DNA of 63,317 nt, filler included, from Collodictyon triciliatum (taxonomy: Eukaryota): NCBI GenBank assembly GCA_043381765.1. It is 53 parts of 53 records of this genome, joined end to end, with 100 filler letters (N's around TTAATTAATTAA, not from the genome) between each part and the next. Parts side by side here need not be neighbours in the genome. Positions count along the whole stretch, not along the records: positions 51,510 to 52,602 come from JBHJMP010012338.1; 52 more parts are not named here. One strand, given 5' to 3'. Below, piece by piece: positions 1-63,048 of the stretch; within the stretch, counting starts at the first letter, position 1; each line of letters begins with the position of its first letter. The position numbers and the translations under genes were made by a program. The notes below the pieces were generated by a model. The model worked only from the letters and a program-made list of their open reading frames with translations. It had not been told where the DNA came from and searched no databases.

Positions 1-54
1 TATAATTGCCCACTTAAAAACATTTGTCTATGAGTAAGTAAGAACAAAAGAAAA

Positions 55-1104
55 ATGGAACTCATTGAATCAATCGACCCCGTTATCATTGACAAACTTC
101 TGCAACAATCAGAAGAAAAAGTAGACAAAAAGACAAAGGGAAAGTTGAGCATTATTAAAAGGGAATCAGTGAATGGGCAACTGAAAGTAAAATACGATTA
201 CTCAAAGAACTGCAGAAAATATAAAGTTGGACGATTCTTTCCAGTGAGTATTTCTGTGGGAAAGTTGGAAAAGCCCCTGCGTAATTATCTGATGAAGGAT
301 AAATATGCTAGTCTTGATATTGTCAATTGCCATTATACTCTGTCTTTGGCACTGGCAAAAAAATGGGACACACCTTATGAAGCTATTGAGCGTTATGTTA
401 TACAACGTAACGGTATAATTGAAAACACAATGGAGTTGAAAAAGAAAACGCGCAAAGAAGTTAAGCAACTTTATCTGATGCTGGCTTTTAGCGGCAAAGT
501 CCAACCATTTGACGAGTTTACTACTCAACTGCAACAAGAAATGAATATACTTGCAGCTATGGCATACAGCAAACATCTAGAGTGGCACAATCTAAAACTT
601 CGTGAGTCAGACGAATGTCTAGCTGAACACGACAATCGCATTTATAGTTGTTTGGCATATGTGCTTCAAACAGAGGAAACTAAAATAATGCAGAAAGTGA
701 TTGATGTTTTAAATGAATGTAAAGTTGAAGTTGGATTATATAATTTTGATGGGCTGTTTATCAATAAAGCTCAATACGAAACCGGCGGACAAATAGAGGA
801 AAAAACCGAAGGGCTTTCTATTGCCATTGAAACGGAAACAGGGTATAAAGTAGAATTTAGCTATGAACCCATTGAATCAACTTTTAAGCCTGATGAAGTT
901 GCTATAACAGTACCAATCGCAGAATTTGCAAAGACTCATTTTATGTTACGCGGTGATTTGTTTGTTGAGTACCCGGATGAACCCACTCGCAAACCTGAAC
1001 ATATAAAGTCTGCTTCATCTTACTGTGCGAGATTTGGTAAAAACTACTGGCAACAAGTACAAGCAACTATTCCGTGGGATAGATGTTATATGTACTTTGA
1101 TTTT
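55..1104 (+). CDS. TV-Pol-like (PolA-superfamily-related primase/polymerase) of virophage, Polinton-like virus or transposon type; 3'-truncated by contig end
   Basis: Uninterrupted, intronless 350-codon ORF. Motifs in order: GRFF (229), motif A LDIVNCH (D at 316), motif B RKEVKQLYLMLAFSG (451), LQTEE, motif C YNFDGL (D at 748). The ORF continues past the palm domain to the contig end. Confidence 0.75.
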
Positions 1105-1922: not shown

Positions 1923-2880
1923 CTGAAGAAGGAACAATATAATTAGGTTTTTTTTTCTGAAGATTGCCTTGGAATAAATATTACATAAAGAAAAAAATGC
2001 GTGCTCTCCTGCACTGCAAGTATGAAGTACAACATAGCATACGAATGAAAGCGTTAGTTCAAAGAGAAAGGAATCATGCGAAGTTTTCAAAAGTGATATA
2101 TGAAAGCTATTGTGATGATATTTTGACGGCGATAAAGCAGCAAAGAACAATAAAAAGGAAATAAATAACAAGTAGAACAAAATGAAGAACCAAAAGAAAA
2201 GAAAGAGAAAAAGAAAAGAAAAAGAAAAGAAAAAGAAAAGAAAAAGAAAAGAAAAAGAAAAGAAAAAGAAAAAGAAAAAGAAAAAGAAAAAGAAAAAGAA
2301 AAAGAAANNNNNNNNNNNNNNNNNNNNNNNNNNNNNNNNNNNNNNNNNNNNTTAATTAATTAANNNNNNNNNNNNNNNNNNNNNNNNNNNNNNNNNNNNN
2401 NNNNNNNACTTTGTTTGTTTTTCCTTGTTCGTATATCTGTCTCTCTGTCACTTTGTTTCTTTATGTGTCTTTGTCTCTTCGTCCTTGTTTCTCAGTTTGT
2501 TTTTTGTTTCTATGGATCTTTGTTTGTTTGTTTGTTTGTTTGTTTGTTTGTTTGTTTGTTTGTTTGTTTGTTTGTTTGTTTGTTTGTTTGTTTGTTTGTT
2601 TGTTTGTTTGTTTGTCTCTTTTTCTTTGTTTGTTTGTCTCTTTTTCTTTGTTTGTTTGTCTCTTTGTTTCATTATTGTCTTAGTTTCTTTGTTTCTTTTG
2701 TTTCTCTGTCTCTTTGTTCCTTTTTATTTCTTTTCTTTTTCTTTTTCTTTTCTTTTACTATTATTTTTATATTATCCTTATTATGCCCGCGCCTGATTTT
2801 CACTCAAGCTTCCCGCGCCTGATGGAAAACACGAAGCCTTCTGCGCTTGTTATGAGAAACATAAGCAAAACGTAAAGGTT

Positions 2881-3510
2881 TTGCAAGTTGCAGCCAGCTC
2901 TTCTGGTTCCAAAGCTGGTGCGGAAAAACCCCGCGTTACACGTAAGTTTAGGAAGACCCGTGCAAGGAAGCCGCCTGCAAGTCTGTCTGAGCGGAAAGTA
3001 TTTTTGCACGGAGTCGAGAAAGTCGCTTACAACAAGAACAAGGCCCGCAGGCTAACAGATGCGCTCGCCTCCTTCTTGGAAGAGAACAAACTTTGGGAAG
3101 ATTCCATTCAATTGCGCTTACCAGACAGCGAAGGCCTTTTCCTGATTGCCTTTCGCACTGCAGAAACCGCACGAAAGCTTCTGGAACTGAGACAGGTAAG
3201 TTTGATCGATATTATAAGCAGCTCCAGCAGAAGTAAACCGGCAGAGACCTCGGTGATGTTCCAACAACTACCGCTGGACGTGTGGCCGCAATTCCTTCGT
3301 GAGGAGCTGAAGCCGTTCAGACCGACCCACGTGGAGATTAAAAAGGACAAAGGCTTCTTCACAGACACGGCCGTGGTGAAGCTTGTTTGTCACAAGAACC
3401 AGCTCCCTGCAAAGTTTACGGTCATGGGCAAAAAGTGTCCAAAGCGCATCCTCAAAGAGCGTCCACCAGCCGCGAACAACGAACGACAAGTAAAAGCTCC
3501 GCAAAAGAAT
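2881..3510 (+). mobile_element. Probable LINE (L1/Tx1-like) ORF1 fragment
   Basis: Intronless, more GC-rich, basic ORF with RRM-like segments (KVFLHGV, FLIAFRTAETARKLL, SVMFQQLPLDV). A near-identical second copy lies at 11543-11926, so it is repetitive. Confidence 0.55.
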
Positions 3511-4129
3511 NNNNNNNNNNNNNNNNNNNNNNNNNNNNNNNNNNNNNNNNNNNNTTAATTAATTAANNNNNNNNNNNNNNNNNNNNNNNNNNNNNNNNNN
3601 NNNNNNNNNNAATAATACAATAGTATGATTAGTATATATTAATAAGGTTAAAAATACTTAATAATCTCATTCTATTCATGTAATCAATTTATATTTTATT
3701 TTCTATTTATGTAATATCATATTAAAATTAAAAATTGCAAACAAGCCCTTGCATTGACCTAGACAGAACCCACCCTGTAAACCTGCCACCAAACATGCAT
3801 TTCAAAAAAGCATACTATCCGCACTTGCGGCGGCAATCATGTTGTTTGGGGCCGATATGTTGACTTTCAGTCGCAATCGCTATACGGCCGTCCTTTCGAA
3901 CTCGCTGAATCGGCTCTCAGCGTTTTGTCTCAAATCACTTCTAAAGAAACTTGGCGTGTTTGTTTGCCACAACGCGCACATTGAGGGTCTCGGTAGATGC
4001 TTAATTTTACCTAAATTGATTGTATGCAGTTTTCTTATTCATATAATCAAATTGACTGATTGACTTTGGTTGTATTAAATTGAAAACTCGGCAGTTTTCC
4101 AAAGGAAGAAGTAAAACAAAGACTTTCAG

Positions 4130-4713
4130 ATGAAGAAAAGAAAACGTCTTCAGTCTGATAATCTAAAGTCTGTAAAACGACACCATCGAAATGTGAAAAC
4201 ATCTCAAAAGTTGATTGTAAAGAATGTGGATGACTATGAAAAAATCAACGGTATGATTTTATTGTGTCATAATTTGGTTACCGAAACTTATCTGTTTGCA
4301 AGATGTTACATATTGAAATCAAAACAACTAGTCCCAGCAACCGATGAAAATTTTTTATATGCTTTACAAACAGTCGGAATAGTTTCACAAGATAGACCCG
4401 CAAAGATTAAAAAAAACCAGATATGAGAGATGACATGATGACTTTTTATCTCCATGATTTTCGATTCCTTTTGTCCCGAGAAGAACGCTTTCCGTTGGTT
4501 GGACTGTCTGATGGATTACCGTGCTTGGCGAAGCAAGTGCTAACAGCTTATCGTAGTAACATTAAGGAGCATTTTGTAAAGAGGTTACTGCGCTTAATAA
4601 ATCAAACAGTACCTAAAGATGAGAATATTACGGAATCTATTAAAAAGACAGAGTTACGAAAGTTAAAAAAGCCATCATCAAGAAACTCGAAATACCGGAA
4701 CAATATAAAGAAT
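4130..4713 (+). pseudogene. Fanzor1-like gene, N-terminal part (frameshifted copy 1)
   Basis: NVKTSQKLIVK...HNLVTETYLFARCYIL...LAKQVLTAYRSNIKEHFVKRLLRLIN, with frameshifts in A-runs near 4410 and 4665. Bases 4576-4713 align (about 90% by eye) with the start of the RuvC-containing copy at 51512. Confidence 0.75.
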
Positions 4714-4813: not shown

Positions 4814-5916
4814 AATGGCTCGTTCAGGGGTATTGTCATTTCGCAGTGAGTATACAGAATCTGCCAACGCGAGAGCAAAGGCTCTGGTGTGTTTGGAGGT
4901 GGTCGTGGGATTGTTCTTTGTTGCAACTGTGTTTTGAAGTCTGCACACAGTTTGGTGATGAGTTTCCACATCCCAATTTGCCAAACCTCTTTCGGCTGCA
5001 TGAACATGTCCGTCCACCACTTCATGGTCAGTGATATCCATGCGGTTTTGGGTGTGATGAGTCCAACGCCTCCCTCTGTGGGTGGCTTAATCAGTGTTTT
5101 GATTTTGTATTGCTGTCTCTTTGTTGTGATGAAGGTGCGGCATATGCTCTCCAGTGTGTCGAGATGCTTTTGAGGTAGGTGAGAGCCCTTCATGTTGTGG
5201 ATGAGGGTCGATAGCATGAGTTGGTTCCATAGCCTCGCTTTTCCAATGTCTGAAAGATGGAATCTTTTCCAAGAGGCGATTATGGACTTGATATTGTTGA
5301 CCAGCTTGTCCCACTTTTCTGTGCAGCCGCTCCCATACATTATACCCAGGTATCTGAGTGCGTGGTTTGGGTATTTCCGGTCAATGTTTTCTGGTAGGAT
5401 TCCACCGTCCTGTAGGCCGAATAGATTACCGTCTGTTTTGTTGAAGTTGATTTTACCTCCAACTGCAAGTGTGTATTCTTGCATACACTTATTTGCCAGG
5501 ATAACGCCTTCAGGGGAGCGAAGGATGAAGGCTGTATCGTCGGCATATTACAGGAGGAATTGGTTGCGGATTTTGTTGTTATTTCTGAAGTGGATTGCAA
5601 GACAGTAGGCTACAAAGTTAAAGAGAAGCGGCGCCAGAGAGCATCCTTGGTAGACGCCGCTTTGTCTCTGGATTATGTCGGTAGGGCTATGCGCAGTCAG
5701 AACCCTAGTTGTGGCGTTGTCGTGTAGCTTCTTGATAAGTGTGGTGAACTTTGAGCAGAACCCTCGCTTTTTTAAGATGATTTCTAGGGCCTCATGGTTC
5801 ACATAGTCATATGCCTTTTCAAGGTCGTAGAATATCATGATGCGTGGGTCTTTGGAGACTTGATATTCCATGTATTCCTTGTTCACGAGCCATATGTTTG
5901 TGTCGATGTTCCTGCC
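4814..5916 (-). mobile_element. L1/Tx1-like LINE ORF2 reverse transcriptase fragment with one premature stop
   Basis: GRNIDTNI...FYDLEKAYDYVNH...SGVYQGCSLAPLLF...LL*YADDT (YADD 5536-5547, TAA 5548-5550)...INFNKT...RYLGI...PTEGGVGL. These are canonical non-LTR RT motifs plus the L1-clade GGxGL segment. Confidence 0.93.
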
Positions 5917-8467: not shown

Positions 8468-9971
8468 ACACTTTTTTTGAATCGATTTTTTTTTCCAGTT
8501 TATGGTGTCCAATTATTATAATACAGTTATATCTTGTCAACTTGTAATACCTTTACCTTAACATCTATAGGCACACAAAAATAATATCCCCGTCATGTTG
8601 TTCTATGAGTTTGTCGATAAAATCGCATGCTCACTGCATATCCCAGTAGATAAACCGAGGAAACAGGATAACAATATCCAATTGTATATTACTTCTGTTA
8701 GAGTTTTTTTTTAACCCTAATATACGATTTTAGAATATGGGGGTTTGTTAATACATACATTTCTTCATCTAATGTATGTTTTAGGACGCAGAGTGATTCA
8801 TGACCATTAAAAGGTATGCACTTGAGCGCTTATTAGTTGAAAAGCATTTATCCAGTCTGACGCCTTTATTTGGAGGATATATATGTAAGGGTATAAAATG
8901 TATTTATGTATTTCCCTGGCTTCAATATTTAATATGATAGTATTCATGTCACACATTCATTTTTTTTTAAAAAAAGAACTGCTAGTTTTTTTTAATAAAG
9001 CGAGTGTATCTGATCTATGGATAGTCAATCTTTATTTATTAATTGATAGAAATGTTAGGATTTAATATGAATGTAGTATCTCAGAATACCTTTTAATTAA
9101 CACTTCACATATTTGCACAATAGTCTTATTTATAATCTTGGACTGTATGAACAGTGAATAAGGGCTTTTTTCAAAACTCCACGTACTTGAAAATTGGTTT
9201 TTTCTTTTACATTAAAACTTTAACTGAAATGTAAAAATTATAAGCACAATTATTTTTATATTACTTAGAGCTGAGATTAATTATTTCTGGAAAGACTTCA
9301 GCTTTGGCCATCATTCTGTGCACCCAAATCTTCCTCATCGATTTATTGACTTTATTTTTTTTTTTTATGTATTATACTCAAGCAATAATTAATAGCACTA
9401 TAAGTACTCAAAAAAATGAATCTATACAGCTGGAACAACCATAGAGTATTGAAAATTTTGGAAAAGACCTGTCTTTTTTTTTTTATTCTTCCTTTCAACT
9501 TTTGTGCAGGACCGAGGAAGAGGNNNNNNNNNNNNNNNNNNNNNNNNNNNNNNNNNNNNNNNNNNNNTTAATTAATTAANNNNNNNNNNNNNNNNNNNNN
9601 NNNNNNNNNNNNNNNNNNNNNNNTTCAACATTCATTCCATCAAAACATAAGCAAGAGTATTTCGATCGTCTGAAGTAGAATGAGTGACGACGATGCTGAT
9701 TCCCAAAATTAAATTAAATAAAAAAAAATATGTAGAAAAAAAAAAGAGGCCGTTAAATGAGGAGTACGATAAACGGGAAAAAAAGCGAGGGAGAGAAAAA
9801 GGGCTCTTGCAAAACTCAAAAGGCAAAATGAGTTGCGTGAAGGGAAATCAAAAAGAGAAAATAACGAAAAAGAAAAGTGGAAGGTGAAAAGATCAAAAAA
9901 AAAAGTAAATGGAGTTTAAGATGTACTGAACTTTTTTTTATAAATATGTCCATGTAGCAGCTCCTGATGAG

Positions 9972-10605
9972 ACATGCTACGGGGTATGATACGGGATTAT
10001 GCACAGGATTATACTGCGGGATTATGACACAGGATTATGGTACGAGATTATGCCACGGGATTATGCTGCGGGATTATGCTGCGGGATTATGACACGGATT
10101 ATGACACGGGATTATGATACGGGATTATGACACGGGATTATGATACTGGATTATGACACAGGATTATGACGCCGGATTATGATACGGGATTATGCCACGG
10201 GTTATGCTACGGGATTATGACACAGGATTTTGCCACGGGATTATGACACGGGATTATGCACGGGATTATGCCACGGGGTTTATGACACGGGATTATGACA
10301 CGGGATTATGCACAGGATTATACTGCAGGATATGCCACGGGATTATGCACGAGATTATGATACTGGATTATGATATGGGATTATGGTACGGGATTATGAC
10401 ACAGGATTATGACACGGGATTATGACACTGATTATGCCACGGGATTTGTCACGGGATTTGTCACGGGATTATGCCACGAGATTATGATACTGGATTATGA
10501 TATGGGATTATGACACAGGATTTTGATACGGGATTATGCCACGGGATTATGCCACGGGATTTGTCACGGGATTATGCCACGGGATTATGCACAGGATTAT
10601 GCAAG
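9972..10605. repeat. 13-bp minisatellite (consensus about ACGGGATTATGAC/GCC/GAT), copy 1
   Basis: Tandem GGGATTATG-core units. The flanks (from 9803 and to about 10660) are homologous to those of the array at 57655-58457. Confidence 0.95.
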
Positions 10606-10825
10606 AGTTTACTATATCACTGGGTGGGATGGTTTGTGTTTGTATCATATATGATTTTTCTTTTTTTTCTTTTTTCTTTTTTCTCTTTTTTCTCTTTTTT
10701 CTCTTTTTTCTCTTTTTTCTCTTTTNNNNNNNNNNNNNNNNNNNNNNNNNNNNNNNNNNNNNNNNNNNNTTAATTAATTAANNNNNNNNNNNNNNNNNNN
10801 NNNNNNNNNNNNNNNNNNNNNNNNN

Positions 10826-10999
10826 TGAATAAAAGTGAATAAAAGTGAATAAAAGTGAATAAAAGTGAATAAAAGTGAATAAAAGTGAATAAAAGTGAAT
10901 AAAAGTGAATAAAAGTGAATAAAAGTGAATAAAAGTGAATAAAAGTGAATAAAAGTGAATAAAAGTGAATAAAAGTGAATAAAAGTGAATAAAAGTAAA
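10826..10999. repeat. (TGAATAAAAG)n decamer tandem repeat
   Basis: Perfect 10-bp units at the contig start. Confidence 0.95.
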
Positions 11000-11542
11000 T
11001 AAGATGTTTCTATGGTATTCTGTACAACTCACACTATCTTGGTAGTCGAATCCAACACTTTCTTCGGGCCTTTCTTTATTGAAGGAAGTCCAGCTTCGCA
11101 CATCCCATTGCACAAACATGAAGGCTTTGACATATGCATTTGTTGTATAATTGCGAAAATACGAGGCATGAAAAGGATGTGTAAAGCAGAGAGAAGCGTG
11201 TAGACGAGCGAAAACCTCACTAAGGCGCACAAAAGCATATCTTAAAACAGGTAATTGAGGCGTCTTTCGGTTAAAAAAAACCTAAAGAAAACAAGAAACC
11301 AGGGTTAAAAAACTTCGCAACGACTGTCGCAGACCCATATCACTCGCTGAAGAGCACACGCGCCTGATCAGTTATCCTTCAAGAAGTCTCATCCCGGATG
11401 CTTTCATTGCCAGCAGAAGTGCGCAGCAAACAAACTCAGGGTCCTCACTTCGGGCGAACAATTACTCCCTCGCCTCGTGCCTTTGACTCGCTCGACGCTT
11501 TATACCTGACGCTGCCTTGACCTTTTCCCTTTTTTTTTTTAA

Positions 11543-11926
11543 GCACACTTCGGCGATGCTCTACCAACTACCGCTGGACGTGTGGCCGCAACTCCTTCGT
11601 GAGGAGCTGAAGCCGTTCAGTCCGACCCACGTGGAGATCAAAAAGGACAAAGGCTTCTTCACAGACACGGCCGTGGTGAAGCTTCTTTGTCACAAGAACC
11701 AGCTCCCTGCAAAGTTTACGGTCATGGGCAAAAAGTGTCCAAAGCGCATCCTCAAAGAGCGTCCGCCAGCCGCGAAGAACGAACGACAAGTAAAAGCCCC
11801 GCAAAAGAATACACCCACCAAGCAGACAAGCAGCAACGGGGTCAAGGAAGCCAAGGCCAGGCAACAACTGAGTCCGCAAGACTCACAGCAGATACGCGCA
11901 TACAGCGACAGCGACGATGGCATGGA
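11543..11926 (+). mobile_element. 5'-truncated second copy of the putative LINE ORF1
   Basis: QLPLDVWPQLLREELKPFSPTHVEIKKDKGFFTDTAVVKL... is near-identical to 3241-3510. Homology begins abruptly after a T-run. Confidence 0.6.
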
Positions 11927-23833: not shown

Positions 23834-26800
23834 TTCGCCCAGTGTGGCCCGGCGCTCTGCCTATGAGCGCATTGGGGGACTAACGTTCCCCATCTTGAAG
23901 GGTGGCTCAAAGAATCTTTNNNNNNNNNNNNNNNNNNNNNNNNNNNNNNNNNNNNNNNNNNNNTTAATTAATTAANNNNNNNNNNNNNNNNNNNNNNNNN
24001 NNNNNNNNNNNNNNNNNNNAAAAAACGAAAAAACGAAAAAACGAAAAAACGAAAAAACGAAAAAACGAAAAAACGAAAAAACGAAAAAACGAAAAAACGA
24101 AAAAACGAAAAAACGAAAAAAACGAAAAAACGAAAAACAAAAAACAAAAAACATAAAGGGTTTACAATAAAAAAAATTAACTACCTTTTAAACAAGTGAT
24201 ATATGTGAGTTATACAGTACAATTTTGTGAACATAAATTTGAAAGCGATTAAAGAATTTTTGATTTGCTTCATTCTTTATCGTGTTTATTTGAAAATGAA
24301 AATTTAGGTAGCCTATGTGCCAATTCTAATTTTTAATAGTGACATCGTCGATATCGCCCCCGACAGCAAACTGAATCCCAATGTTCTCCTCCTGTTCAAG
24401 ACATTTTGGAGATATTATAATAACATTTGGAATGTAAAATCACGACCAGTTCATGAAAAATACGGGGTAAAATGAATTAAAATATCTTTTTAGATTCACA
24501 AATATGTCTATATATACACTTATTTTAGAGATGGTTTGGTGTTTTTCATACTAATCGAAAAATTATAAGCATTCTAATTATCATTCAGTGTAAAATAAAA
24601 AGAAGTCGACTTACATTTTTCTTGTCTCGAAGTTTTTCATTTTATTTGCACCAGTACGTATACACCGAAGTTATTAACAATCACTGAAACTCAACCCAAT
24701 TTTGTCATCAAATACATCCTTTTGTTTCCATAGATATCAGGAAAATGGGCGAATATAATAAATAAACAAGATGTTGTTTATGTACGGCAGCGACAATCGA
24801 TACTTTTTTGGGTCCAGCATGAAAAAAATAAGCCCAGTTCAGTTTTGATTGGTCGTGGTAGATTGAGTGGCAATATTGCCTCCATCCAGTTATACAATAT
24901 GACAAGCATGAGACGAAGCTTACGCACATTCCAACTATCTCTAGTAAAGAAGGTTAGATGCCTTTACCATTAGGCAGTTATGTTTTTTTAAGAATCTAAT
25001 TGTAATATTTTTTAAAAACAAAAGAAAAACAAAAGAAAAACAAAAGAAAAACAAAAGAAAAACAAAAGAAAAACAAAAGAAAAACAAAAGAAAAACAAAA
25101 GAAAAACAAAAGAAAANNNNNNNNNNNNNNNNNNNNNNNNNNNNNNNNNNNNNNNNNNNNTTAATTAATTAANNNNNNNNNNNNNNNNNNNNNNNNNNNN
25201 NNNNNNNNNNNNNNNNGTTTTTTGTTTTTTGTTTTTTGTTTTTTGTTTTTTGTTTTTTGTTTTTTGTTTTTTGTTTTTGTTTTGTTTTGTTTTGTCTGTA
25301 TTCTCGCACTCGACCACAGATTCCTCTTGTCCGGTCTCTTAGGCACACAAAACCCATTACGCCTTGAATAAACGTTCGTTCAGATACTCTCGACCATTAG
25401 GGCATACAGATAGAAGCAACCGTGGGGCAGTCATGCACTGCATCATGCTCATCTCGAAAGAAGAAGAAAAACAAAAGAAAAGATAAACAGCCAGCCTGGG
25501 TTTGACTTGGTCAGCCAACGCGCCCTTCTAGTTATTGTGACTCACACAGCCCGGGGAATATGGCGATAAAAGAGGCAAATGAGAGCGAAGAGGTCTTTGG
25601 CGTGATGATGATACGAATAAAAAGGCATCAATGATGGCGACCTGGTCGGGTGGGCGACCTGACTGCTTGGTGGGTTATGTGGATAGCGATAGGTTGGATG
25701 CACTGCACGTTGAGAGATATCATACAAATCTTTTTTTTTTTTATTCTAAAATTCTTAGCTGTTGAGCCCGTCTCAACAATCTTTCATTCAACCACCAGGC
25801 AAGTGTATCATACGAATCTTTCTCACATCCCTTTTCGCGTGCGGTCTACAGCGAAGAACGCACATGATTTGCAACAATCTATTCAAGAAGCTGTATTGCA
25901 CAAGATTATCCAGTCTGGACCGCCTGATTTCTTTTACATTCTGTTTGCTGGAGCAAGTGAAAGCACCCGCGCTCCGCCAGAAAACAGCTTTGGTCGCCGT
26001 TGTTACTGGAACTTTTATTTTCCAGATATAATTTATTTATTTGGAAAACGGTATTAATATGTGGAAATTACACTAAGTAGTCCGAAATGAATTCACTGGC
26101 TTTTTACGATGTTTCTTTTCCGTGCTTTGCTGTGGTTCATTGAGAGGTAGCGAAGTCGAAGAAGCTGACACGAATTATTATTATTATCATTATTGTTATA
26201 AGTATTATTCTTTTATTCTTTTATTCTTTTATTCTTTTATTCTTTTATTCTTTTATTCTTTTATTCTTTTATTCTTTTATTCTTTTATTCTTTTATTCTT
26301 TTATTCTTTTATTNNNNNNNNNNNNNNNNNNNNNNNNNNNNNNNNNNNNNNNNNNNNTTAATTAATTAANNNNNNNNNNNNNNNNNNNNNNNNNNNNNNN
26401 NNNNNNNNNNNNNTTTTATAATATGAAAAGCCATTAGGGGATTTAGACTCTTCGCGACCATTTTCCAACAGGAAAGGAGCTTCTTCTGCAATTCTTTTCA
26501 AAGTAACGCATGGAAAAAAGACACGCTTTGGGGTCAAACAGTATTTATCCGCATTACACAAAAGCGATTTTTCTCATTTTATTCCTATGTAAGTGATTGT
26601 GACCTCAATTGGGAAAGAAATCGGTGAATACTGGATGAAAACTTAACCTGACTTAAACATGAGCGAAACCACCCTCAGAGTCAGTGTTGTGTGTTTCTTG
26701 CTTGTGATTAACAAATCCAAGTTCGGAGTTTTGAAAAAAATAAAAGGCAGAGTCAGTGTTCGCGGTATCAGTAATATACAATTGTGGAATATAATGATTG

Positions 26801-27610: not shown

Positions 27611-28413
27611 ACGGGGTCGTAGAGCTGCAGAGCGCGGACGTGCACATTTTCGCTGTGAGATGTATTTGTCCAGCAGGGGAGATTTGAGATGCCACGCGGG
27701 GCTCTCTTTATGGTTTGTGTATATCCAGCGTTTATATAGAGATTTTTCAGATTTGTGAGTGCTGTGATCTGTGCTGGAAGCTCCTCCATCTGTGTGTATC
27801 GTTGTCAGTCACTTTCTTTTTAAGCATAAATAGTAATAATATATGAATAAAATCATACCGGATTGTCACGAACAGAAAGTTCTGTGAGACCAGTCAAACA
27901 CGATATTTGTGCAGGTAGTGATGACAGCTGATTGCTTTGAACATAAAGTTCTGTGAGACCAGTCAAACACGATATTTGTGCAGGTAACGATGACAACTGA
28001 TTGTTATCAAGATCCAATCGTTCCAGACCAGTCAAACACAATATTTGTGCAGGTAGTGATGACAGCTGATTGTTATAAACATGAAGTACACTGAGACCAG
28101 TCAAACACGATATTTGTGCAGGTAGTGATGACAACTGATTGTCACATACAGAAAGAAATATGAGACCAGTCAAACACGATATTTGTGCAGGTAGTGATGA
28201 CAGCTCATTGTCATAAAGATACAATGCTTTCAGACCAGTCAACAAAAAAACACCAGGCGGCACAGATGATAGATTCCTGCCATCGAGACCCAGATATGTG
28301 GATCTTTTCAGGGTGGCAATATCAGTAATTGATCTCTCATAGCCATCTGTAGAGAGTTTCAGGACTTCTTCCAAAAGCGCATCCACTTGGGCAGGTGTGA
28401 GACAGTCGGACAT
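27611..28413 (-). CDS. Leucine-rich-repeat protein (23-aa repeats), N-terminal part, 2 exons
   Basis: Probable ATG at 28413. Tandem 69-nt units LSSLPAQISCLTGLxxLxLxxNQ. A GT-AG intron (27858-27790) joins in frame to MEELPAQITALTNLKNLYI. Confidence 0.93.
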
Positions 28414-28807
28414 CTGGACAGATTCTGACTGTATATATGGGTAGACTGACTGGGTGTCAATACAATACACATCATTTATCTGTTTTATAAGTGAACTTGA
28501 CAATCACACAGGACAGAATAACTCGAGTCAGGACGGAGGGTTGTGCACACGGAGATCAGAAAGTACTTTGTGAATAAAAAAAGTAAAGTAAGGATTTCGA
28601 CAAGACGAGGTTAAATATCCCGCAAAGGCCGGCGGATTTTTCAGAGAAGACGACTTGTGCAGAACTTGTGTGCTTGTGCTTCCTTGGAAATTCACCGGTT
28701 CGGGGTTNNNNNNNNNNNNNNNNNNNNNNNNNNNNNNNNNNNNNNNNNNNNTTAATTAATTAANNNNNNNNNNNNNNNNNNNNNNNNNNNNNNNNNNNNN
28801 NNNNNNN

Positions 28808-51509: not shown

Positions 51510-52602
51510 TCTGTAAAGAGGTTACTGCGCTTTATAAATCAAACAGTTCCTAAAGATGAGAATATTACGGATGCTATTAAAAAGGCAGAGCTTCGAAAGT
51601 TGAAAAAAAAGTCATCTTCAAGAAGCTCGAAATACTGGAACAATATAAAGGATGGGCTGCAACGCATTTGCATCGTATCATTCCCAGCGATATTGTAAAA
51701 GGTATCGAATATGACGTCAAAGTCAATTCAAATAAGTACATTCCATGTCTGATTTACATGAATCACATTTTTGAGGACATTGGGACCAAACTGTATTAAC
51801 CAATCTCTATAAGAACGAACAATATACAGTGTCATATTACTCTAGATACTGCATGTTTGATTTATCTATTAGTATCATCGGAAAAAACATTATTACTGAA
51901 GTATAGATCAGGATGGTAAGAGACCCCAGGGGATAATTTCTTTGAAATGAAGAAGAGGGTCTTTCATCAAAGAGTCTACAATTTTAAATACACGATACAA
52001 ACAGACGGCTTGGCGGTGTCATTATTGTTTGAAAAAGAAGGTTTTTCAAATCCAAAATTCAAATATAATCAAAAAAAAAAACCAAGAATACATTTATGTA
52101 GATGAACTTTCCGAAGAGCAGTTATCTTTATTAGCGACAAAAAAATAAATAAAATAGTTGGAGTGGACGCAGGCGAGTTTAATATGGTTTAGATGGCGGA
52201 TGAGGCAGGTGAGAAATTATGCTACACGGCACACCAAACAAGACATGATAGCAAATCTCCTCAAAATCACAAAATACTATTGCGCCTGAAAAAAAGAAGT
52301 ACAATGCTTCAGGGATATACATGGCAACAGGTTTACAAAGTGCTGTTTCTTTTGGTGTCACGACTTTTGAAGAGAATCAGCAGTTTGAGACATCAAGAGT
52401 ATCTTTAATCGATTAGAGACAGAACTGAGAAAACATAATTCATGCACGGTCGATTATGTATAATTCGGGGATATGTATCTATGAAATCAAGATACCAGAT
52501 AGAATTTTCCAGATTTTATGAACAAGTGACTTTTCGAAAGATGAGATGGATACAGTATGTTAATACAAAAAGAAGTGAACAGTTGTTTATGGACCGAATC
52601 GA
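51510..52602 (+). pseudogene. Fanzor1-like gene, central region with RuvC-I (decayed copy 3)
   Basis: VKRLLRFINQ...GIEYDVKVNSNKYIPCLIYMNHIFE...KLY*PISIRTNNIQCHITLDT...FKYTIQTDGLAVSLLF...IVGVDAG (52154-52174)...FYEQVTFRKMRWIQYVNTKRSEQLFMDRI. Overlaps copies 1 and 2. Confidence 0.85.
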
Positions 52603-53895
52603 NNNNNNNNNNNNNNNNNNNNNNNNNNNNNNNNNNNNNNNNNNNNTTAATTAATTAANNNNNNNNNNNNNNNNNNNNNNNNNNNNNNNNNNNNNNNNNN
52701 NNATCACGGTTGCTGCAAAGCGTGCATTGTTGGGAGACTTTGCCAGCTTTTGCCGCGCGTGTGCCTATCCATAGCTCCCTATTGGTGATATTAAGCATTA
52801 GAGAGCGGTGATTTGGAAGGGCTTGCGGGGTTCGTGCTTGTCTTTTCCCTTTTTCTTTTACTTTTATCCCTGTTTTTTTCTCTATCTCTCACATACCTAA
52901 CCTACTTTGGAACCACTCGCCGTATTGTTGAATGAAAGATTGTTGAGACGGGCTCAACAGCAAAGATTTTCGGATTACCCTGAGTCATTTTGGCAGGTGT
53001 AGGTCGCATCTCGGATTTCAATTTCTTTTTTCGGTCTGTCATCACCCACCTCTTCCCAAAATGGGGGAACCTATTCATTTTTTTGGTGTTCGGATGGAAT
53101 GGCATTCTATTTCGTGCGAATCGGGAATTTAGAGCCAAAGTGGAACATATGAGTATTTAGTAGTTATCATTCCATTAAACACGAATCTTCCACGATACTG
53201 ATATGGTATATTCTTTTATAGGACTATAATAATCCACATGTGGATAGTTCCTTTGCTTAGACCACGCGAGATAAATCTATCAAAATCGCGACGGACACAA
53301 GCACAACCACTGGTAGGCTCTAGTCAGGTTGCAACCGAAAGCACGGCAGAGAGAAAGACAGCCAACTTCCCACCAGTACCCTTCCAAGTTCCTAGACCTG
53401 AGCACAATGGTGAAAGGAAGCAAACCAGGTTAACTATTTCCCTTTTCCTTTATTGCTTTTTTCTTTTCTTTTTTCTTTTCTTTTTCTTTTCTTTATTCCT
53501 TTTTTCTTTTTTCTTTTCTTTTTCTTTGCTTTTTTCTTTTCTTTTTTCTTTTCTTTTTGCTTTTCTTTTTTCTTTTCTTTTTTCTTTTCTTTTTTCTTTT
53601 CTTTTTTCTTTTCTTTATTCCTTTCTTTATTCCTTTTTTCTTTTTTCTTTTTCTTTTTTCTTTTTTCTTTTTCTTTTTTCTTTTCTTTTTTCTTTTCTTT
53701 TTTCTTTTCTTTTTTCTTTTCTTTTTTCTTTATTCCTTTATTATTTATTCTTTGTTCTTTATTTCTTGTATTTTTCTTTTTTCTTTTTTCTTTTTNNNNN
53801 NNNNNNNNNNNNNNNNNNNNNNNNNNNNNNNNNNNNNNNTTAATTAATTAANNNNNNNNNNNNNNNNNNNNNNNNNNNNNNNNNNNNNNNNNNNN

Positions 53896-54987
53896 AAGGG
53901 AAACCCAAGCCAACTCGGTAACAGAATCGGGAAACAGCATAATGGCACCCAGCAAACCACACCCGCCTACCTCCTTAGAGGTCATGGCTCCTGGAACCAC
54001 CCAAGAGACTCTTTCTTCAGTAAGTACTGCGCAATCCATAAGAATCGACGTCCTGGACTCGGGATTGGAAGAACAATCCATCCAACCTGTCGTCATCATA
54101 GAAGGTTCTACTGAAGAAGAATGTGAACACCTTGAAGCTTCGGGATCGACAAATGACTCCTCAAGTACTGTTTATGGGAGCAGACTTACTGTCGAAACTC
54201 TTGCGACTCCCCAGCGAGAAACGCCTTCCTATCCAAGAAAAAGAAATGTAGACGAATATAAAACACCGGTTACTCATCCTGTCATCACTGACGCACCAAA
54301 AAATATCGAAGCAGTCGAAGATAAAGCCTCGCCCGATGAAAAGAGAATAAATCAGTCAAGTACACCATCGAATATAGCGAGCCAGAAAGCAAGTCAGAAT
54401 GAGAGTGGAAACATGGGTTGGCCCTGCCTACTGCGTGGATGAGGGAGAAAAATTGGAACCGAGGGGTACCGATGGCCAACAGAGTGCATCTCCCAACATA
54501 CCAGCTACAAAGGGGGTGCAGTCAAAAGCCCAAGACCATCCGACAAATCCTGGCCGAACCGCGAGCAATAATAGCACCGGCCAAATGAAGGATAACTCGA
54601 GTAAACCATCTCACCCTGAGCAACCCAGCTCCAGCGAAGAGGGCCAACCACCGGAGGCTACGGCCTCCAAAAGCCAATAGACTTTATATGCGTTTTAACG
54701 TTCTGTCGTGGAACGTTAGGGGGATTAATGACCCCCAAAAAAGAAAAGAGGCCCTAAACACTGCTCTTTTCTCTCATGCAGATATAATCTGCCTCCAAGA
54801 AACATGGCTCAGCCCTGATAATCTAACCAATGATGAAATATAGAAACGTCCACAAATGTGGTTATGTGACGATAACCAGCAGAGACATGCAGGTGTAGCG
54901 TTTCTATGCAAGAAATGGATAGCCAAACTCAATCCTCGCTTCAGAGAGATTATTCCTGGCCGCTGCATAAGTCTCGATATCCAAATA
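53896..54987 (+). mobile_element. Decayed LINE ORF1 end and ORF2 APE endonuclease start (copy B)
   Basis: ORF1 stop at 54678-54680, a 7-nt spacer, then ATG 54688 MRFNVLSWNVRGINDPQKRK...DIICLQETW. Homologous to 16827-17545. Confidence 0.88.
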
Positions 54988-56179: not shown

Positions 56180-57654
56180 NNNNNNNNNNNNNNNNNNNNN
56201 NNNNNNNNNNNNNNNNNNNNNNNTTAATTAATTAANNNNNNNNNNNNNNNNNNNNNNNNNNNNNNNNNNNNNNNNNNNNTAAAAGACAAATAAAAGACAA
56301 ATAAAAGACAAATAAAAGACAAATAAAAGACAAATAAAAGACAAATAAAAGACAAATAAAAGACAAATAAAAGACAAAAAAAGACAAAAAAAGACAAAAA
56401 AAGACAAAAAAAGACAAAAAAAGACAAAAAAAGACAAAAAAAGACAAAAAAGACAAAAAAAGACAAAAAAACAAAACAGAAAAGAGAATGCATAATTAGG
56501 GGCATACTATGCAATAGATGATATTAAATTAAAATGAAAACTAAATGAAGCTGAATGCAAACATAAAACGTATAGATACACCATAACATCACAAATATAC
56601 ATCGTACTAAACATCAAATTACTAATCTCATGACGAAACTGAGCATTATCGTCCCAATTTCGGCTGCGGCGTAATTGTCCCCTGGACTCGTGCATTTCTG
56701 GCTGTGTTCTTGCGAACGAAGCAAGCTCTTCCACCTGAAGGGCGAATCGACTGCATTAACACCGCCTTGGCAGGAAAAACTCAAGGATACGACAAACAAA
56801 AACTGACGATACATGCAAATACGAGCAACCACCAATGCGCACAAACCTGTTGCCCGAGCACGGCTATGGCCACGTCCATCCCCGCGAGAACGTCGTCAAT
56901 GCCACCAGGACCTGCGTTGATTCCTGCCTCAGACTCTGTTTCCATGCTTGCCTCGGTTTCCGTCTTTGTGCGAAAGGGAGGTTGCGCTGCTCTTGAGACG
57001 TGGGGATCGACTTCTGCAAGGTGGTGCCAAAGGACGTTCACGGTCGCGTCCCATTCCCTGTCGAGACACACCTGCGCGGTCTGCATTGTTCCGCGTTGCT
57101 TGCGACTCCGGCGTTCTGCAAGGCGAGTTTGGGGCGCTGTCAGACTTGCTTTCTCTTTGGCGTTTGAGACGACAGAGTACGCTGGGCCACATGTTTCATG
57201 GCACGCTTGCTGGGAGGGGCTTTTGCCTCTTTGCGATGTTCTGACAGACGATGCTTTCTTCGCTCTTTTTCTTCTTTTTTCTCTTTTCCGCTCCTTTTCT
57301 ACTTTCTACTTATTTCTTTTTTGGGTCTTGTTTAGTTTATCGCTGCTGCTGCAATCGTGTGTGCGAATAGNNNNNNNNNNNNNNNNNNNNNNNNNNNNNN
57401 NNNNNNNNNNNNNNTTAATTAATTAANNNNNNNNNNNNNNNNNNNNNNNNNNNNNNNNNNNNNNNNNNNNGGCTCTTGCAAAACTCAAGAGGCAAAATGA
57501 GTTGCGTGAAGAAAGGGAAATCAAGAATCAAAAAGAGAAAATAACGAAATAGAAAAGTGGAAGGTGAAATAATCAAAAAAAAAAGAAATGGAGTTTAAGA
57601 TGTACTGAAGTTTTTTTTATAAATGTATTCATGTAACAGCTCCTAATGAGACAT

Positions 57655-58457
57655 GCTACGGGATTATGACACGGGATTATGCCACGGGATTATGACACGG
57701 GATTATGATATGGGATTAAGATACAGGATTATGATACGGGATTATGACACGGGGTTATGCCACTGGATTTGCCACGGGATTATGATGTGGGATTATGACA
57801 CGGGATTATGACACGGCATTATACACGGGATTATGACACGGGATTATGATACGGGATTATGCCACGGGATTATGTCACTACGGGGTTATGGCATGGGATT
57901 ATGCTACGGGATTATGACACGGAATTATGCCACGGGATTATGACACAGGATTATGCACGAGATTATGACACGAGATTATGACACGAGATTATGACACGAG
58001 ATTATGCCACGGGATTATGCCACGGGATTATGCCACGGGATTATGATACGGGATTATGTCACGGGATTATGCACAGGAATACTGCAGGATTATGCCACGG
58101 GATTATAATACGGGATTATGACACGGGGTTATGATACGGGGTTATGATACGGGATTATGATACGGATTATGATACGGGGTTTATGACACGGGATTATGAT
58201 ACGGGGTTATGGCATGGGATTATGCTACGGGATTATGACACGGAATTATGCCACGGGATTATGACACAGGATTATGGCACGGGATTATGATACGGGGTTA
58301 TGCACGAGATTATGATACGGGATTATGTCACGGGATTATGCACAGGAATACTGCAGGATTATGCCACGGGATTATGACACGAGATTATGCCGCGGGGTTA
58401 TGATACGGGATTATGACACGGCATTATGCCATGGGATTATGCCACGGGATTATGCAA
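57655..58457. repeat. 13-bp GGGATTATG-core minisatellite, copy 2
   Basis: Same unit and homologous flanks as 9972-10605, but a longer array with a different order of variants. Confidence 0.95.
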
Positions 58458-58660
58458 GAGTTTACTTTATCACTGGGTGGGATGGTTTGTGTTTGTATCA
58501 TATATGATTTTTCTTTTTTTCTTTCTTTTTTCTTTTTTCTTTTTTTCTTTTTTTCTTTTTNNNNNNNNNNNNNNNNNNNNNNNNNNNNNNNNNNNNNNNN
58601 NNNNTTAATTAATTAANNNNNNNNNNNNNNNNNNNNNNNNNNNNNNNNNNNNNNNNNNNN

Positions 58661-61463: not shown

Positions 61464-62976
61464 ATTGATTGCTAGAGTGATAAGAAAGGCCTCACACACC
61501 GTCCTTATGAAAGTGTAATCAGCCCTGCCACCCTTGGAGTAAGTACATTCCAAATGAGCGTGCTATCAAACTTTTGATAGCATTCGCTCATTTTTATGAT
61601 ACTTTTCCATTCTCATCTCCACCTCTTTCACACGTTTAACATGACCGAAACAGGTCCCAAATGGTTTTGATTGCGCAGATTGTTGGACCTTTTCAACCAA
61701 CACGTTTGTGCAATTGAACCCATTTGAGATTTACTTCTGCTTGTATTTTCGTGTCTCCTTCATATCACCACTCATTCACTGCCATGCCCCTCCCTTGACC
61801 TTTGAAAACTTGTGTCAACCTCTCCTTGTGCTGTGTGCGAATTGCTCAGGTAGCATTTCATGGAGAACTTAGTTTATGAAGCCATTTTTTTGGGGAAAGA
61901 GTACTCCCAGATGCCACGCAGGCAACATTCAGTTCGAGGTACCAGGCAAAAAGCCCTTGAAAAGGTCACTTTTCTTTGGTTTGTCTGGTTGCGTTGGTTG
62001 GATGGTCATTAATGACGCGCCTGCGGTGTTTCATAGATCCTTCGTTGGAGTGTACACCTGAAAGTTTCACACAAAAATCAGGAGAGAAGCCTCATCTTAG
62101 ACACAAGTTCATCCCCCTCCTTCTTCTGNNNNNNNNNNNNNNNNNNNNNNNNNNNNNNNNNNNNNNNNNNNNTTAATTAATTAANNNNNNNNNNNNNNNN
62201 NNNNNNNNNNNNNNNNNNNNNNNNNNNNGATGTAACTGGCAGTTGAACTCTCCTGCACTTCTTTTGGATGAGAGAAACCGACAGGCCCTGGGTTTGAAAA
62301 AGAGTGTGGGGTTTGGCAGTTTTGCTGCTTGGCCGGGATATTGCCCACGCTTGCAGCTCCATCTTGTCCGCCTTCCGCTGCGGTGCTCACATACTCTCGC
62401 TTTTGGGTCTGAAAATGAGGTGTCAAAGCGAATCCAGCTCCTACAGCTTGTCTCGTCGCTGAGTTCGTCCCCAAACCGAATGCGCGGTCGAGTACGCCAT
62501 GTGAGTCACGGTTGGAGTCATTTCTTGCAGTTTCTTCGGCAATACCATCCATCAGCTCTACATAAAAGGGAAGTCACTCCAGTGAGGAAAAATGAGAATA
62601 GTCCAGGGTGTGCATGATTTATATGAGATGGGTCATCTGCAACATGATAAGGGCGATTTAGGATTCTGTTGTGTTGGGCAGCAGCCTTCTCTCGCTTTTT
62701 TTCTGCTTTTTTTTACTCAAGGAACGAGCCCAAATTTGGATAATCTTCAGTCCTTCTTTTACTTCCACCATCCCATTCCCAATCATTTATGTGTAATGAC
62801 AAAGTGTGTATGTTTCTCCAATTAAGGAATTGGGTGCTCGTGTAACTTACTATCAAAATTTATATACAAAATATATATACAATTGATACGCATTAGCATG
62901 CATTAAATATAATTGACCTGCAAAATAAGAATCATTGTATTTTCCACATGCGATCTGTTGGATGGCCAAAACTTTG

Positions 62977-63048
62977 TGGGGGTGGCAGGCATCAACCCGT
63001 TACCTCTCGCATGCTAAGCGAGCGCTATACCATCCGAGCTACACCCCC
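62977..63048 (-). tRNA. tRNA-Ala(AGC), degenerate and probably a pseudogene
   Basis: Acceptor stem GGGGGTG/CACCCCC and anticodon arm CTCGC-TTAGCAT-GCGAG are perfect. The D-stem has a mismatch (GCTC/TAGC), the T-stem has a mismatch, and the T-loop is 6 nt (TTGATG). Confidence 0.85.

What the first reader, a model, noticed from the sequence alone, without database searches (positions are those of the whole stretch)
51510..52602. Multi-copy Fanzor1-type RNA-guided nuclease family, reconstructable from three contigs
Seen: contigs 4130-4713(+), 51510-52602(+) and 39569-40630(-) overlap one another with clear nucleotide homology but are distinct copies. Stitched across frameshifts they give about 540 aa: N-terminal helical region (TETYLFARCYIL; YRSNIKEHFVKRL), YDVK..P.KY...YMN, HITLDT, IQTDGLAVSLLF, RuvC-I IVGVDAG, FRKMRW...RSE and YGDWS..SPMK. 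Established: this motif order is characteristic of Fanzor1, the eukaryotic and giant-virus TnpB/Cas12 relatives that cut DNA using an omegaRNA encoded at the element's 3' end. Inference: three copies among 53 short contigs suggest a high-copy family in this protist, possibly with intact members and an undescribed TAM and omegaRNA. Both RuvC-containing copies read GVDAG rather than the usual GVDPG. RuvC-II, the Zn finger, RuvC-III and the omegaRNA lie beyond the contig ends and cannot be seen. The ORF track shows only unlabelled pieces.
Basis: partly seen in the sequence, partly recalled or inferred. Interest (0 to 1): 0.88.

Follow-up and report, generated by a model that had tools for sequence, protein, structure and literature searches.

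The report
Broken Fanzor1 nuclease gene copies

Summary
Contigs 51510-52602(+), 39569-40662(-) and 3611-4713(+) are distinct copies of one repeat: 87.2% identical over 1006 nt and 89.4% over 142 nt.

The family is Fanzor1. A read-through of copy 1 finds 640 database proteins at E<=1e-3. Their 87-row profile matches the three solved Fanzor1 nucleases over their full length, at E 2.9e-110, 4e-107 and 1.4e-85. The next PDB hit is at 2.5e-4.

Together the copies cover about the first 510 of about 630 residues. This includes the RuvC-I Asp, read GVDAG where 81 of 85 relatives have P. It also includes the YGDWS motif. The RuvC-II Glu, zinc finger, RuvC-III Asp and any omegaRNA lie beyond the contig ends.

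All three copies are broken. Copy 1 has at least 6 frameshifts and 3 stops, copy 2 at least 7 and at least 5, and copy 3 has 2 frameshifts. The stops replace Q, K, Y and W codons that most other family members keep, so this is decay and not a variant genetic code. Differences between copies 1 and 2 fall evenly on the three codon positions.

About 200 short contigs in each of two public runs match the stretch, so the family is high-copy. Verdict: a real but ordinary new member of a known kind.

The parts
4130..4713 (+). Copy 3: the N-terminal part of the Fanzor1 gene. It runs from the ATG (4130-4132) through a K/R-rich N-terminus, VTETYLFARCYIL and YRSNIKEHFVKRL, and aligns to residues 1-200 of the 634-aa relative P0003. 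It is broken by 2 frameshifts, near 4418 (A8 run) and between 4636 and 4687 (A6 run).
   Evidence: Frameshift-aware alignment: 74 identical of 191 aligned residues to P0003. tblastn with P0007 gives 73% identity over 78 aa. Sequence read.
3611..4129 (.). 520 nt upstream of the copy-3 start codon. It has an AT-rich part (3611-3735) and a GC-richer part. Whether it belongs to the element (5' end or TIR) or is flanking DNA is unknown.
   Evidence: No other contig of the window matches it. One weak 15-nt inverted repeat. No Rfam or tRNA hit. No similarity to the transposase of the viral relative.
51510..52602 (+). Copy 1: the middle part of the gene, about residues 154-483 of P0003. It holds YDVK..YMN, HITLDT, IQTDGLAVSLLF (51995-52030), RuvC-I IVGVDAG (52154-52174, Asp codon 52166-52168) and FRKMRW..RSE. 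It has at least 6 frameshifts: about 51603, 52058-52064, 52134-52140, 52286, about 52410 and 52461. It has 3 in-frame stops: TAA 51797, TAA 51917 and TAG 52190.
   Evidence: In other family members the majority letters at the stop positions are CAA, AAA and TAC.
39569..40662 (-). Copy 2: the middle part of the gene, about residues 174-510 of P0003. It holds IQTDGLAVSLLF (40205-40240), IVGVDAG (40073-40093), FRKMRR..RSE and YGDWSRKSPMK (YGDWS at 39602-39616), and ends at the contig end before RuvC-II. It has at least 7 frameshifts and at least 5 in-frame stops, of all three kinds: TAG 40583 at a W position, TAA 40438 at a Q position, TGA 40264, TAA 40249 and TAA 39787.

Best explanation
The three contigs are fragments of separate, decayed copies of one high-copy mobile-element family in an unidentified, repeat-rich eukaryote. 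Its cargo gene encodes a Fanzor1 nuclease, the eukaryotic and giant-virus branch of the TnpB/Cas12 RuvC superfamily. An intact family member would bind an omegaRNA transcribed from the 3' end of its own element. It would then cut double-stranded DNA that matches the guide next to a TAM, using the RuvC site (Asp, Glu, Asp), as shown for SpuFz1 and GtFz1. This step is inferred from family membership and is not shown here. The copies in this window cannot do this. Each is interrupted by several frameshifts and nonsense codons. They have diverged without selection on the protein. They stop at contig ends before RuvC-II, the zinc finger and RuvC-III. Copies 1 and 2 share one nonsense codon and two frameshifts of equal phase, so they descend from a copy that was already dead. 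That ancestor was spread passively, either mobilised in trans or copied by segmental duplication.
For: Family, shown:
- phmmer of the copy-1 read-through (P0001) against 1.84 billion representatives gave 640 hits at E<=1e-3 and 141 at E<=1e-10. The best were P0002 (E 5.5e-66, 50% identity) and the full-length P0003 (E 7.8e-41).
- P0003 matches SpuFz1 (8gkh) over residues 14-607 at E 9.2e-37, PpFz1 at 7.2e-34 and GtFz1 at 7e-16.
- P0001 itself matches GtFz1 at 2.8e-5 and PpFz1 at 5.1e-4.
- The 87-row profile matches the three Fanzor1 structures at 2.9e-110, 4e-107 and 1.4e-85. The next PDB hit is at 2.5e-4.
- The relatives carry the catalytic set: RuvC-I D in 85 of 85, RuvC-II E in 80 of 81, RuvC-III D in 79 of 79 residues at those columns.

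Decay, shown:
- The frameshift-aware alignments place frameshifts and stops in all three copies.
- P0007, an 85%-identical database protein, reads straight through the site of the 51603 frameshift.
- In runs X1 and X3 the letters at 51797, 51917 and 52192 are C, A and C in nearly all the depth (181.3 of 188.8, 240.6 of 275.3 and 145.3 of 145.3 in X1). The family therefore has CAA, AAA and TAC where copy 1 has stops.
- Differences between copies 1 and 2 fall 36, 32 and 35 on codon positions 1, 2 and 3, out of 302 sites each (chi-square p = 0.88).

Shared lesions:
- TAA at the Q codon is present in both copies (51797 and 40438).
- The two frame offsets around DELSEEQLSLLATKK are equal modulo 3 in both copies.

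High copy number:
- 212 contigs in X1 and 201 in X3 lie on the 1093-nt stretch at 80-99% likeness.
- 3 of the 53 window contigs carry the family.
Against: - Most frameshifts of copies 1 and 3 sit in A runs of 6-11. That is also where sequencing and assembly errors fall.
- The assembly is very fragmented. Contigs of a high-copy repeat can be chimeras of several copies, so the lesion counts per 'copy' may be inflated.
- The source reads could not be examined. No listed run held half of the sampled words, and the contigs laid come from other runs.
- Runs X1 and X3 are guessed to be RNA. If so, many family members are transcribed.
- The C-terminal third is unseen, so the Fanzor1 catalytic set is shown only for relatives.
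- The profile contains the window's own row (1 of 87).
Confidence: 0.85

Rival explanations
1. The genes are intact in the organism, and the frameshifts are homopolymer-length errors of a poor assembly.
For: Frameshifts near 51603, 52058-64, 52134-40, 52286, 4418 and 4687 lie in or beside A runs of 6-11. The contigs are only about 1.1 kb long.
Against: Copy 1 also has three nonsense codons and two indels outside homopolymers (about 52410 and 52461). Copy 2 has stops of all three kinds at Q, W and other positions. Substitutions between copies 1 and 2 show no codon-position bias. Errors would not give two copies the same TAA.
Confidence: 0.06
2. The organism reads TAA/TAG (and TGA) as sense codons, as ciliates and karyorelicts do, so the frame is really open.
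For: Copy 1 gives one open 347-codon frame under table 27. TAA stands at a position where relatives have Q. Several other contigs open up under table 6.
Against: - That single frame is not the coding frame throughout: relatives show DELSEEQLSLLATKK in another frame.
- TAG 52190 stands where copy 2 and the relatives have Tyr, TAG 40583 where they have Trp, and TAA 51917 where most family members have AAA.
- Most other family members have CAA at 51797.
- Contigs with 346-365-codon frames open under the standard code exist.
- The frames that 'open' under table 6 are mostly low-complexity sequence.
Confidence: 0.02
3. The copies belong to giant-virus DNA (free or recently integrated) in the sample, not to an old repeat of the host nucleus.
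For: The closest full-length relative, P0003, is 88% and 80% identical to genes on giant-virus metagenome contigs L001-L004. A 357-aa ORF on contig 1-1104 has only virus-rich clusters as its nearest neighbours in the protein atlas (score 0.96; a lead only).
Against: The window's family is only 37% identical to P0003. About 200 divergent contigs per run, spread from below 90% to above 99% likeness, and neutral decay fit an old, dispersed genomic repeat. They do not fit a viral gene present in one to a few copies. A viral origin of the family in the distant past is not excluded and is compatible with the best explanation.
Confidence: 0.07

Closest known systems
SpuFz1 / SPu-1 element of Spizellomyces punctatus (Fanzor1 prototype; PDB 8gkh; Bao & Jurka 2013, PMC3627910; Saito et al. 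2023, PMC10432273)
   Same: The family profile aligns over the whole SpuFz1 chain (profile 8-608, E 2.9e-110). Length class is the same (633 aa for SPu-1-1p; relatives here are 560-760 aa). The order of motifs is the same: helical N-terminal half, TDG strand, RuvC-I D, GDWS, then in the relatives DE..TS, CxxC and RD. [quoted passage not shown]
   Different: Similarity to SpuFz1 is distant: P0001 alone scores E 0.33 against it. The window copies read D-A-G instead of D-P-G. No intact copy, no TIR or TSD, no 3' end and no omegaRNA can be seen. Copy number appears much higher.
Two-gene Tc1/mariner(IS630)-type plus Fanzor1 transposons of giant viruses (PGv-1 type, PMC3627910; here L001-L004 from IMG/VR)
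   Same: P0003, the best full-length hit of the window's gene (37% identity, E 7.8e-41), is 88% or 80% identical to the Fanzor gene of L001-L004. In L001 a DDE_3 plus HTH_28 transposase lies divergently upstream (E 1.3e-13). Homology between the loci ends about 50 nt after the Fanzor stop codon.
   Different: Amino-acid identity to the window's family is only 37%. No transposase homologue was found on any of the 53 window contigs. The window copies are dead, while the viral genes are open.
CMe-1A, the old decayed Fanzor1 family of Cyanidioschyzon merolae (PMC3627910, passage read)
   Same: It is a Fanzor1-only family whose copies are about 80% identical to their consensus, which is a comparable state of decay.
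   Different: Some CMe-1A copies still encode intact proteins according to the paper. No intact copy is visible here. The host is different, and I did not measure sequence relatedness.
Bacterial TnpB (IS200/IS605, IS607) and Fanzor2
   Same: Same RuvC superfamily. The relatives carry PF07282 (Cas12f1-like TNB), which was listed in 6 of 10 tested and scored above the curated cut-off in 3 of 10.
   Different: The profile gives only marginal hits to TnpB-like chains (LaTranC 2.5e-4, Cas12m 0.013). No chain whose listed name says Fanzor2 appears at E<=1, so the family is not Fanzor2 or TnpB proper.

Membership tests
Fanzor1 | Sequence or profile similarity to experimentally characterised Fanzor1 nucleases that is stronger than to TnpB or Fanzor2 | tested here: met
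   Profile A2 against the PDB: SpuFz1 2.9e-110, PpFz1 4e-107, GtFz1 1.4e-85; the next hit is at 2.5e-4. P0003 against SpuFz1: 9.2e-37. The window read-through against GtFz1 is 2.8e-5 and against PpFz1 is 5.1e-4.
Fanzor1 | RuvC-I aspartate (first D of the D-X(125,275)-[TS][TS]-X-X-C4-X(5,50)-RD motif of PMC3627910) | tested here: met
   GVDAG is present in copy 1 (Asp codon 52166-52168) and in copy 2. The column is D in 85 of 85 residues. The following residue is P in 81 of 85 and A only in the window's row.
Fanzor1 | Conserved Gly ahead of RuvC-II. I take the invariant G of GDWS to be the G500 (SPu-1-1p numbering) that PMC3627910 names; that equivalence was not checked against the paper's figure. 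| tested here: met
   YGDWS is present in copy 2 (39602-39616). The column is G in 82 of 82 residues. Copy 1 ends before it.
Fanzor1 | RuvC-II glutamate followed by [TS][TS] | not testable with these tools
   It lies beyond the contig ends. No other window contig carries it: the profile scan of all 53 contigs covers profile positions 8-507 of 636 only. It is present in the relatives (E in 80 of 81).
Fanzor1 | C4 zinc finger (OrfB_Zn_ribbon / PF07282) | not testable with these tools
   It lies beyond the contig ends. In the relatives PF07282 was listed in 6 of 10 and scored above the cut-off in 3 of 10.
Fanzor1 | RuvC-III 'RD' aspartate | not testable with these tools
   It lies beyond the contig ends. 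D is present in 79 of 79 residues of the relatives.
Fanzor1 | omegaRNA encoded at the 3' end of the element, plus a TAM | not testable with these tools
   The 3' end is absent from the window, no whole genome is held, and two metagenome scans found no family member. In the viral relatives, a conserved block that folds into hairpins spans the ORF end and about 50 nt beyond.
Fanzor1 (functional gene) | Uninterrupted open reading frame | tested here: not met
   Copy 1 has at least 6 frameshifts and 3 stops. Copy 2 has at least 7 frameshifts and at least 5 stops. Copy 3 has 2 frameshifts.
Fanzor-bearing DNA transposon | Terminal repeats, TSD or an associated transposase | tested here: inconclusive
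   The 520 nt upstream of the ATG are not repeated in the window. Only one weak inverted repeat was found. There is no homologue of the L001 transposase. The element ends cannot be defined from one 5' flank.

The most novel reading that the evidence does not exclude
Elsewhere in this organism's genome, intact master copies of this family survive. They would encode an active Fanzor1 with an unusual D-A-G RuvC-I motif. Dozens to hundreds of copies would make it one of the most proliferated Fanzor1 lineages known. It would be related to Tc1/IS630-borne giant-virus Fanzor1, pointing to virus-to-protist transfer, and would have its own TAM and omegaRNA.
Probability: 0.2. Interest if true: 0.45.

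Novelty: new member of a known kind. Interest (0 to 1): 0.25.

Why it matters
It adds one more eukaryotic lineage with a heavily amplified Fanzor1 family. It also gives a clear example of copies that spread after they were already inactivated, which fits the view that Fanzor is cargo and not the transposase. The D-A-G variant of RuvC-I is fixed in this family (both window copies, and loose-end sequences of two other runs). It is a small natural experiment at a position that is P in 81 of 85 relatives. Beyond that, the window holds no intact gene, no catalytic C-terminal third, no guide RNA and no element ends. It opens no new question and supplies no usable nuclease.

Tried and rejected
- Pfam and NCBIfam on six raw frame pieces found no relevant family. 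The N-terminal two thirds of Fanzor1 have no model in these libraries.
- The precomputed label PF26935.1 on all 19 hits is not in the local Pfam, so I could not see its name.
- I entertained a ciliate or karyorelict code (tables 6 and 27) because the frame looked open. I rejected it for the reasons given under the rival explanations.
- The whole genome of the window is not held.
- The listing of cluster members could not be run because the database was switched off. The source names and organisms of P0002, P0007 and P0152 therefore remain unknown.
- The search for related loci with alignment A2 had no stretch conserved enough. Run with P0003, it returned 5 viral loci.
- The metagenome scan with P0001 found 21 pattern matches, none of them a relative. 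Four of its six peptide patterns fell in out-of-frame or stop-containing parts.
- The metagenome scan with a 20-nt conserved word gave 2 loci (L006, L007). Both have 58-59% GC and no other similarity to the family, so they are chance matches.
- The look-up of sequencing runs listed no RNA holder, and no run held half of the sampled words.
- Rfam and tRNA scans found nothing on the three contigs.
- tblastn with the L001 transposase and the small upstream ORF against the window found nothing below E 0.02.
- The search of earlier findings found nothing for this genome or this sequence.
- No structure prediction was run. A frame-corrected protein would have had to be a joined sequence, and the profile evidence was already decisive.
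They may already list this organism's Fanzors.

Full report
**Layout and observation.** The window is not one locus. It is 53 contigs of 1089-1104 nt joined by N spacers, with GC from 27% to 61%. Contig 51510-52602(+) and contig 39569-40662(-) are 87.2% identical over 1006 nt. The last 142 nt of contig 3611-4713 are 89.4% identical to the first 142 nt of 51510-52602. These are three distinct copies of one repeat that tile a longer unit. Contigs from public runs continue leftwards from 51512 with the sequence seen at the end of copy 3 (loose ends). The order copy 3 then copy 1/2 is therefore right.

**What the gene is.** Pfam and NCBIfam see nothing in the raw frame pieces. I read copy 1 through in one frame (P0001, 347 aa) and ran it with phmmer against 1.84 billion representative proteins. 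It found 640 proteins at E<=1e-3, 141 at E<=1e-10 and 2 at E<=1e-30. The best hits are:
- P0002: 291 aa, 50% identity, E 5.5e-66.
- P0003: 634 aa, 37% identity, E 7.8e-41.
- P0007: 137 aa, 85% identity.

P0003 is full length. It carries VGADPG, YGDWS, NEFRTSKLCCRC and VTRDLNSAQN. These correspond to the RuvC-I Asp, the RuvC-II Glu, the zinc finger and the RuvC-III Asp of the motif D-X-[TS][TS]-X-X-C4-X-RD, which Bao and Jurka give for Fanzor and TnpB (PMC3627910, passages and section 5 read).

Against all PDB chains, P0003 matches SpuFz1 (8gkh) over residues 14-607 at E 9.2e-37, Parasitella Fanzor1 at 7.2e-34 and Guillardia Fanzor1 at 7e-16. P0001 alone still reaches GtFz1 at 2.8e-5 and PpFz1 at 5.1e-4.

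I then built an 87-row alignment. It holds 83 of the 150 listed hits, chosen by length 560-760 aa with the other 67 left out, plus P0001, P0002, P0007 and P0152. Its profile matches the three Fanzor1 structures at 2.9e-110, 4e-107 and 1.4e-85 over the whole profile. The next chains (LaTranC, a Cas12m, a transposase) score only 2.5e-4 to 0.11. The family is Fanzor1, not Fanzor2 or TnpB.

In that alignment the catalytic columns read as follows:

| Column | Count |
|---|---|
| RuvC-I D | 85 of 85 |
| Residue after RuvC-I D is P | 81 of 85 (the single A is the window's row) |
| G of GDWS | 82 of 82 |
| RuvC-II E | 80 of 81 |
| RuvC-III D | 79 of 79 |

Both window copies read D-A-G. Two loose-end sequences of other runs read the same codon. 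The Ala is therefore a family trait.

**What part is present.** Guided by P0003, copy 3 covers residues 1-200, copy 1 about 154-483 and copy 2 about 174-510. A profile scan of the six-frame translations of all 53 contigs finds only these three, covering profile positions 8-507 of 636 (the profile includes the window's own row). The RuvC-II Glu, the zinc finger, the RuvC-III Asp, the 3' end and any omegaRNA are therefore not in the window. The N-terminus is K/R-rich (MKKRKR...), like that of P0003. That would fit the nuclear localisation signals reported for Fanzors (PMC10530073, section heading seen), but this is inference.

**State of the copies.** I aligned the copies to P0002 and P0003 with a frameshift-aware method.
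- Copy 1 has frameshifts near 51603, 52058-64, 52134-40, 52286 and 52461. The frame difference between the two aligned blocks implies one more, near 52410. It also has stops at 51797, 51917 and 52190.
- Copy 2 has seven placed frameshifts and five to seven stops, depending on the alignment in a low-complexity linker.
- Copy 3 has two frameshifts.

P0007 reads straight across the 51603 site, so that break is a lesion and not the family's normal state.

I first suspected a ciliate-type code, because copy 1 is open in one frame under table 27. That idea fails on three counts. First, that frame is not the coding frame throughout: relatives show ...YLDELSDDQLSVLSTRKIVGVDPG, which needs two frame changes in both window copies. 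Second, the stops stand at positions of Gln, Lys, Tyr, Trp and Arg. Third, in the family members of runs X1 and X3 the letters there are C at 51797 (181.3 of 188.8 depth in X1; 220.1 of 220.1 in X3), A at 51917 and C at 52192. Those give CAA, AAA and TAC.

The 103 differences between copies 1 and 2 in the aligned coding part fall 36, 32 and 35 on codon positions 1, 2 and 3, out of 302 sites each (p = 0.88). That is neutral drift.

Copies 1 and 2 share the TAA at the Gln codon. They also share the two frame offsets, which are equal modulo 3 although the indel lengths differ. They therefore descend from a copy that was already broken.

Caveats: most frameshifts of copies 1 and 3 lie in A runs of 6-11, where errors also fall. 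The contigs may also be chimeric collapses of several copies. The nonsense codons, the two indels outside homopolymers and the codon-position test do not depend on these caveats.

**Copy number.** No whole genome is held, and no run held half of the sampled words. When laid at 80% likeness or more, two small runs of one study (X1 and X3, coded organisms A and B) gave 212 and 201 contigs on the 1093-nt stretch. In X1 these split as 16 at 99% or more, 50 at 95-99%, 78 at 90-95% and 68 below 90%. Two metagenome runs gave 7 and 8 contigs. The listed pieces are about 150-360 nt long. By rough inference this corresponds to some dozens of distinguishable variants. The kind of library (RNA or DNA) is only guessed, so nothing is claimed about expression.

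**Relatives and likely mechanism.** P0003 is 88%, 80%, 80%, 80% and 49% identical to genes on five IMG/VR contigs (L001-L005). The first carries a giant-virus MAG name. In L001 a 346-aa ORF lies divergently upstream and carries DDE_3 (E 1.3e-13) and HTH_28. This is the known two-gene Tc1/mariner-type plus Fanzor1 arrangement (PMC3627910). Homology between L001 and L002-L004 runs on for at least 600 nt upstream of the Fanzor ATG. Downstream it stops about 50 nt after the stop codon. RNAalifold predicts hairpins across the ORF end, with 10 of 54 pairs changed on both sides in at least one sequence. With only three distinct sequences plus one distant one, this is weak. It is what an omegaRNA scaffold ending at the right element end would look like. 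It is a lead about the relatives, not about the window. No transposase homologue is on any window contig.

By membership, an intact member of the window's family would be an omegaRNA-guided, TAM-dependent double-strand DNA endonuclease, like SpuFz1 and GtFz1 (PMC10432273, passages read). The copies seen here are relics.

**Comparison with what is known.** Fanzor1 was described in 2013 in fungi, amoebozoa, algae, stramenopiles, animals and large DNA viruses (PMC3627910). A survey of 22,497 assemblies found 3655 unique Fanzors, up to 122 copies per genome and four Fanzor1 clades (PMC10530073, passages read). 'Hundreds of copies' are mentioned in PMC10711439 (passage read). Old, decayed Fanzor1-only families such as CMe-1A are also described (PMC3627910). 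I therefore cannot say whether this particular family is already listed. My single literature search (terms Fanzor1 and Fanzor, 174 papers, 25 listed) was not aimed at that question.

**Verdict.** This is a new member of a known kind, present here only as truncated pseudogene fragments. Interest 0.25. The boldest reading still open is that intact, active D-A-G masters exist elsewhere in the genome. I give that a probability of about 0.2.

Noticed in passing
window 4816-5916 (-): A non-LTR-type reverse transcriptase fragment (Pfam RVT_1, E 1.2e-16, with YADD motif). It is open over the whole contig except for one in-frame TAA just before YADD.
   Followed up: partly
window 34-1104 (+): A 357-codon open frame that fills the contig and has no Pfam family. 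In the protein atlas its nearest clusters are unnamed and virus-rich (scores 0.95-0.96, with a faint D5_N lead at 0.82). The assembly may contain viral or virus-derived DNA.
   Followed up: partly
window 9624-10725 and 57471-58560: Two contigs built of the same tandem repeat. blastn gives dozens of offset matches at 78-90% identity, and the frames translate as ...HNPVSQSRVIIP... units. This looks like a satellite family.
   Followed up: no
window 37180-38274; also 19226-20324, 20425-21522, 47930-48555, 53202-53795: Long microsatellite and low-complexity arrays: one whole contig reads QSQSQS.../GIGIEI..., and others are CT-rich runs reading SLFLF.... This points to a very repeat-rich eukaryotic genome, which probably explains the 1.1-kb contigs.
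   Followed up: no
window 27853-28503 (-): A leucine-rich-repeat protein fragment (LRR_8, E 1.6e-25) with near-identical 23-residue repeats.
   Followed up: partly
window 62976-63048 (-): tRNA-Ala with anticodon AGC. It is the only Rfam or ARAGORN hit in the whole window.
   Followed up: yes
window 22822-23919: A contig with 61% GC, far above the 27-49% of the other contigs. Long open frames on both strands are what such a GC content would give. It may come from another organism in the sample.
   Followed up: no
window 2408-3510 / 10826-11926; 16827-17926 / 53896-54987 / 13227-14326; 4814-5916 / 13227-14326: Further repeat families are shared between contigs: 95% identity over 264 nt, 88% over 724 nt and 95% over 169 nt.
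   Followed up: no
L001 1638-4962 (also L002-L004): The giant-virus relatives carry a DDE_3/HTH_28 transposase divergent from the Fanzor1 gene, with a conserved 69-codon ORF between them. The last 150 nt or so of the Fanzor ORF plus about 50 nt downstream are nearly invariant and fold into hairpins, after which homology between the loci ends. This is a candidate omegaRNA and right element end.
   Followed up: partly
P0002 (database protein, 291 aa): The closest database relative ends in ...KKKYDYLSCFQFTRGYRFQHSGHK. That tail aligns with an out-of-frame reading of the window copies. This annotated protein may itself come from a frameshifted or mis-modelled copy.
   Followed up: no
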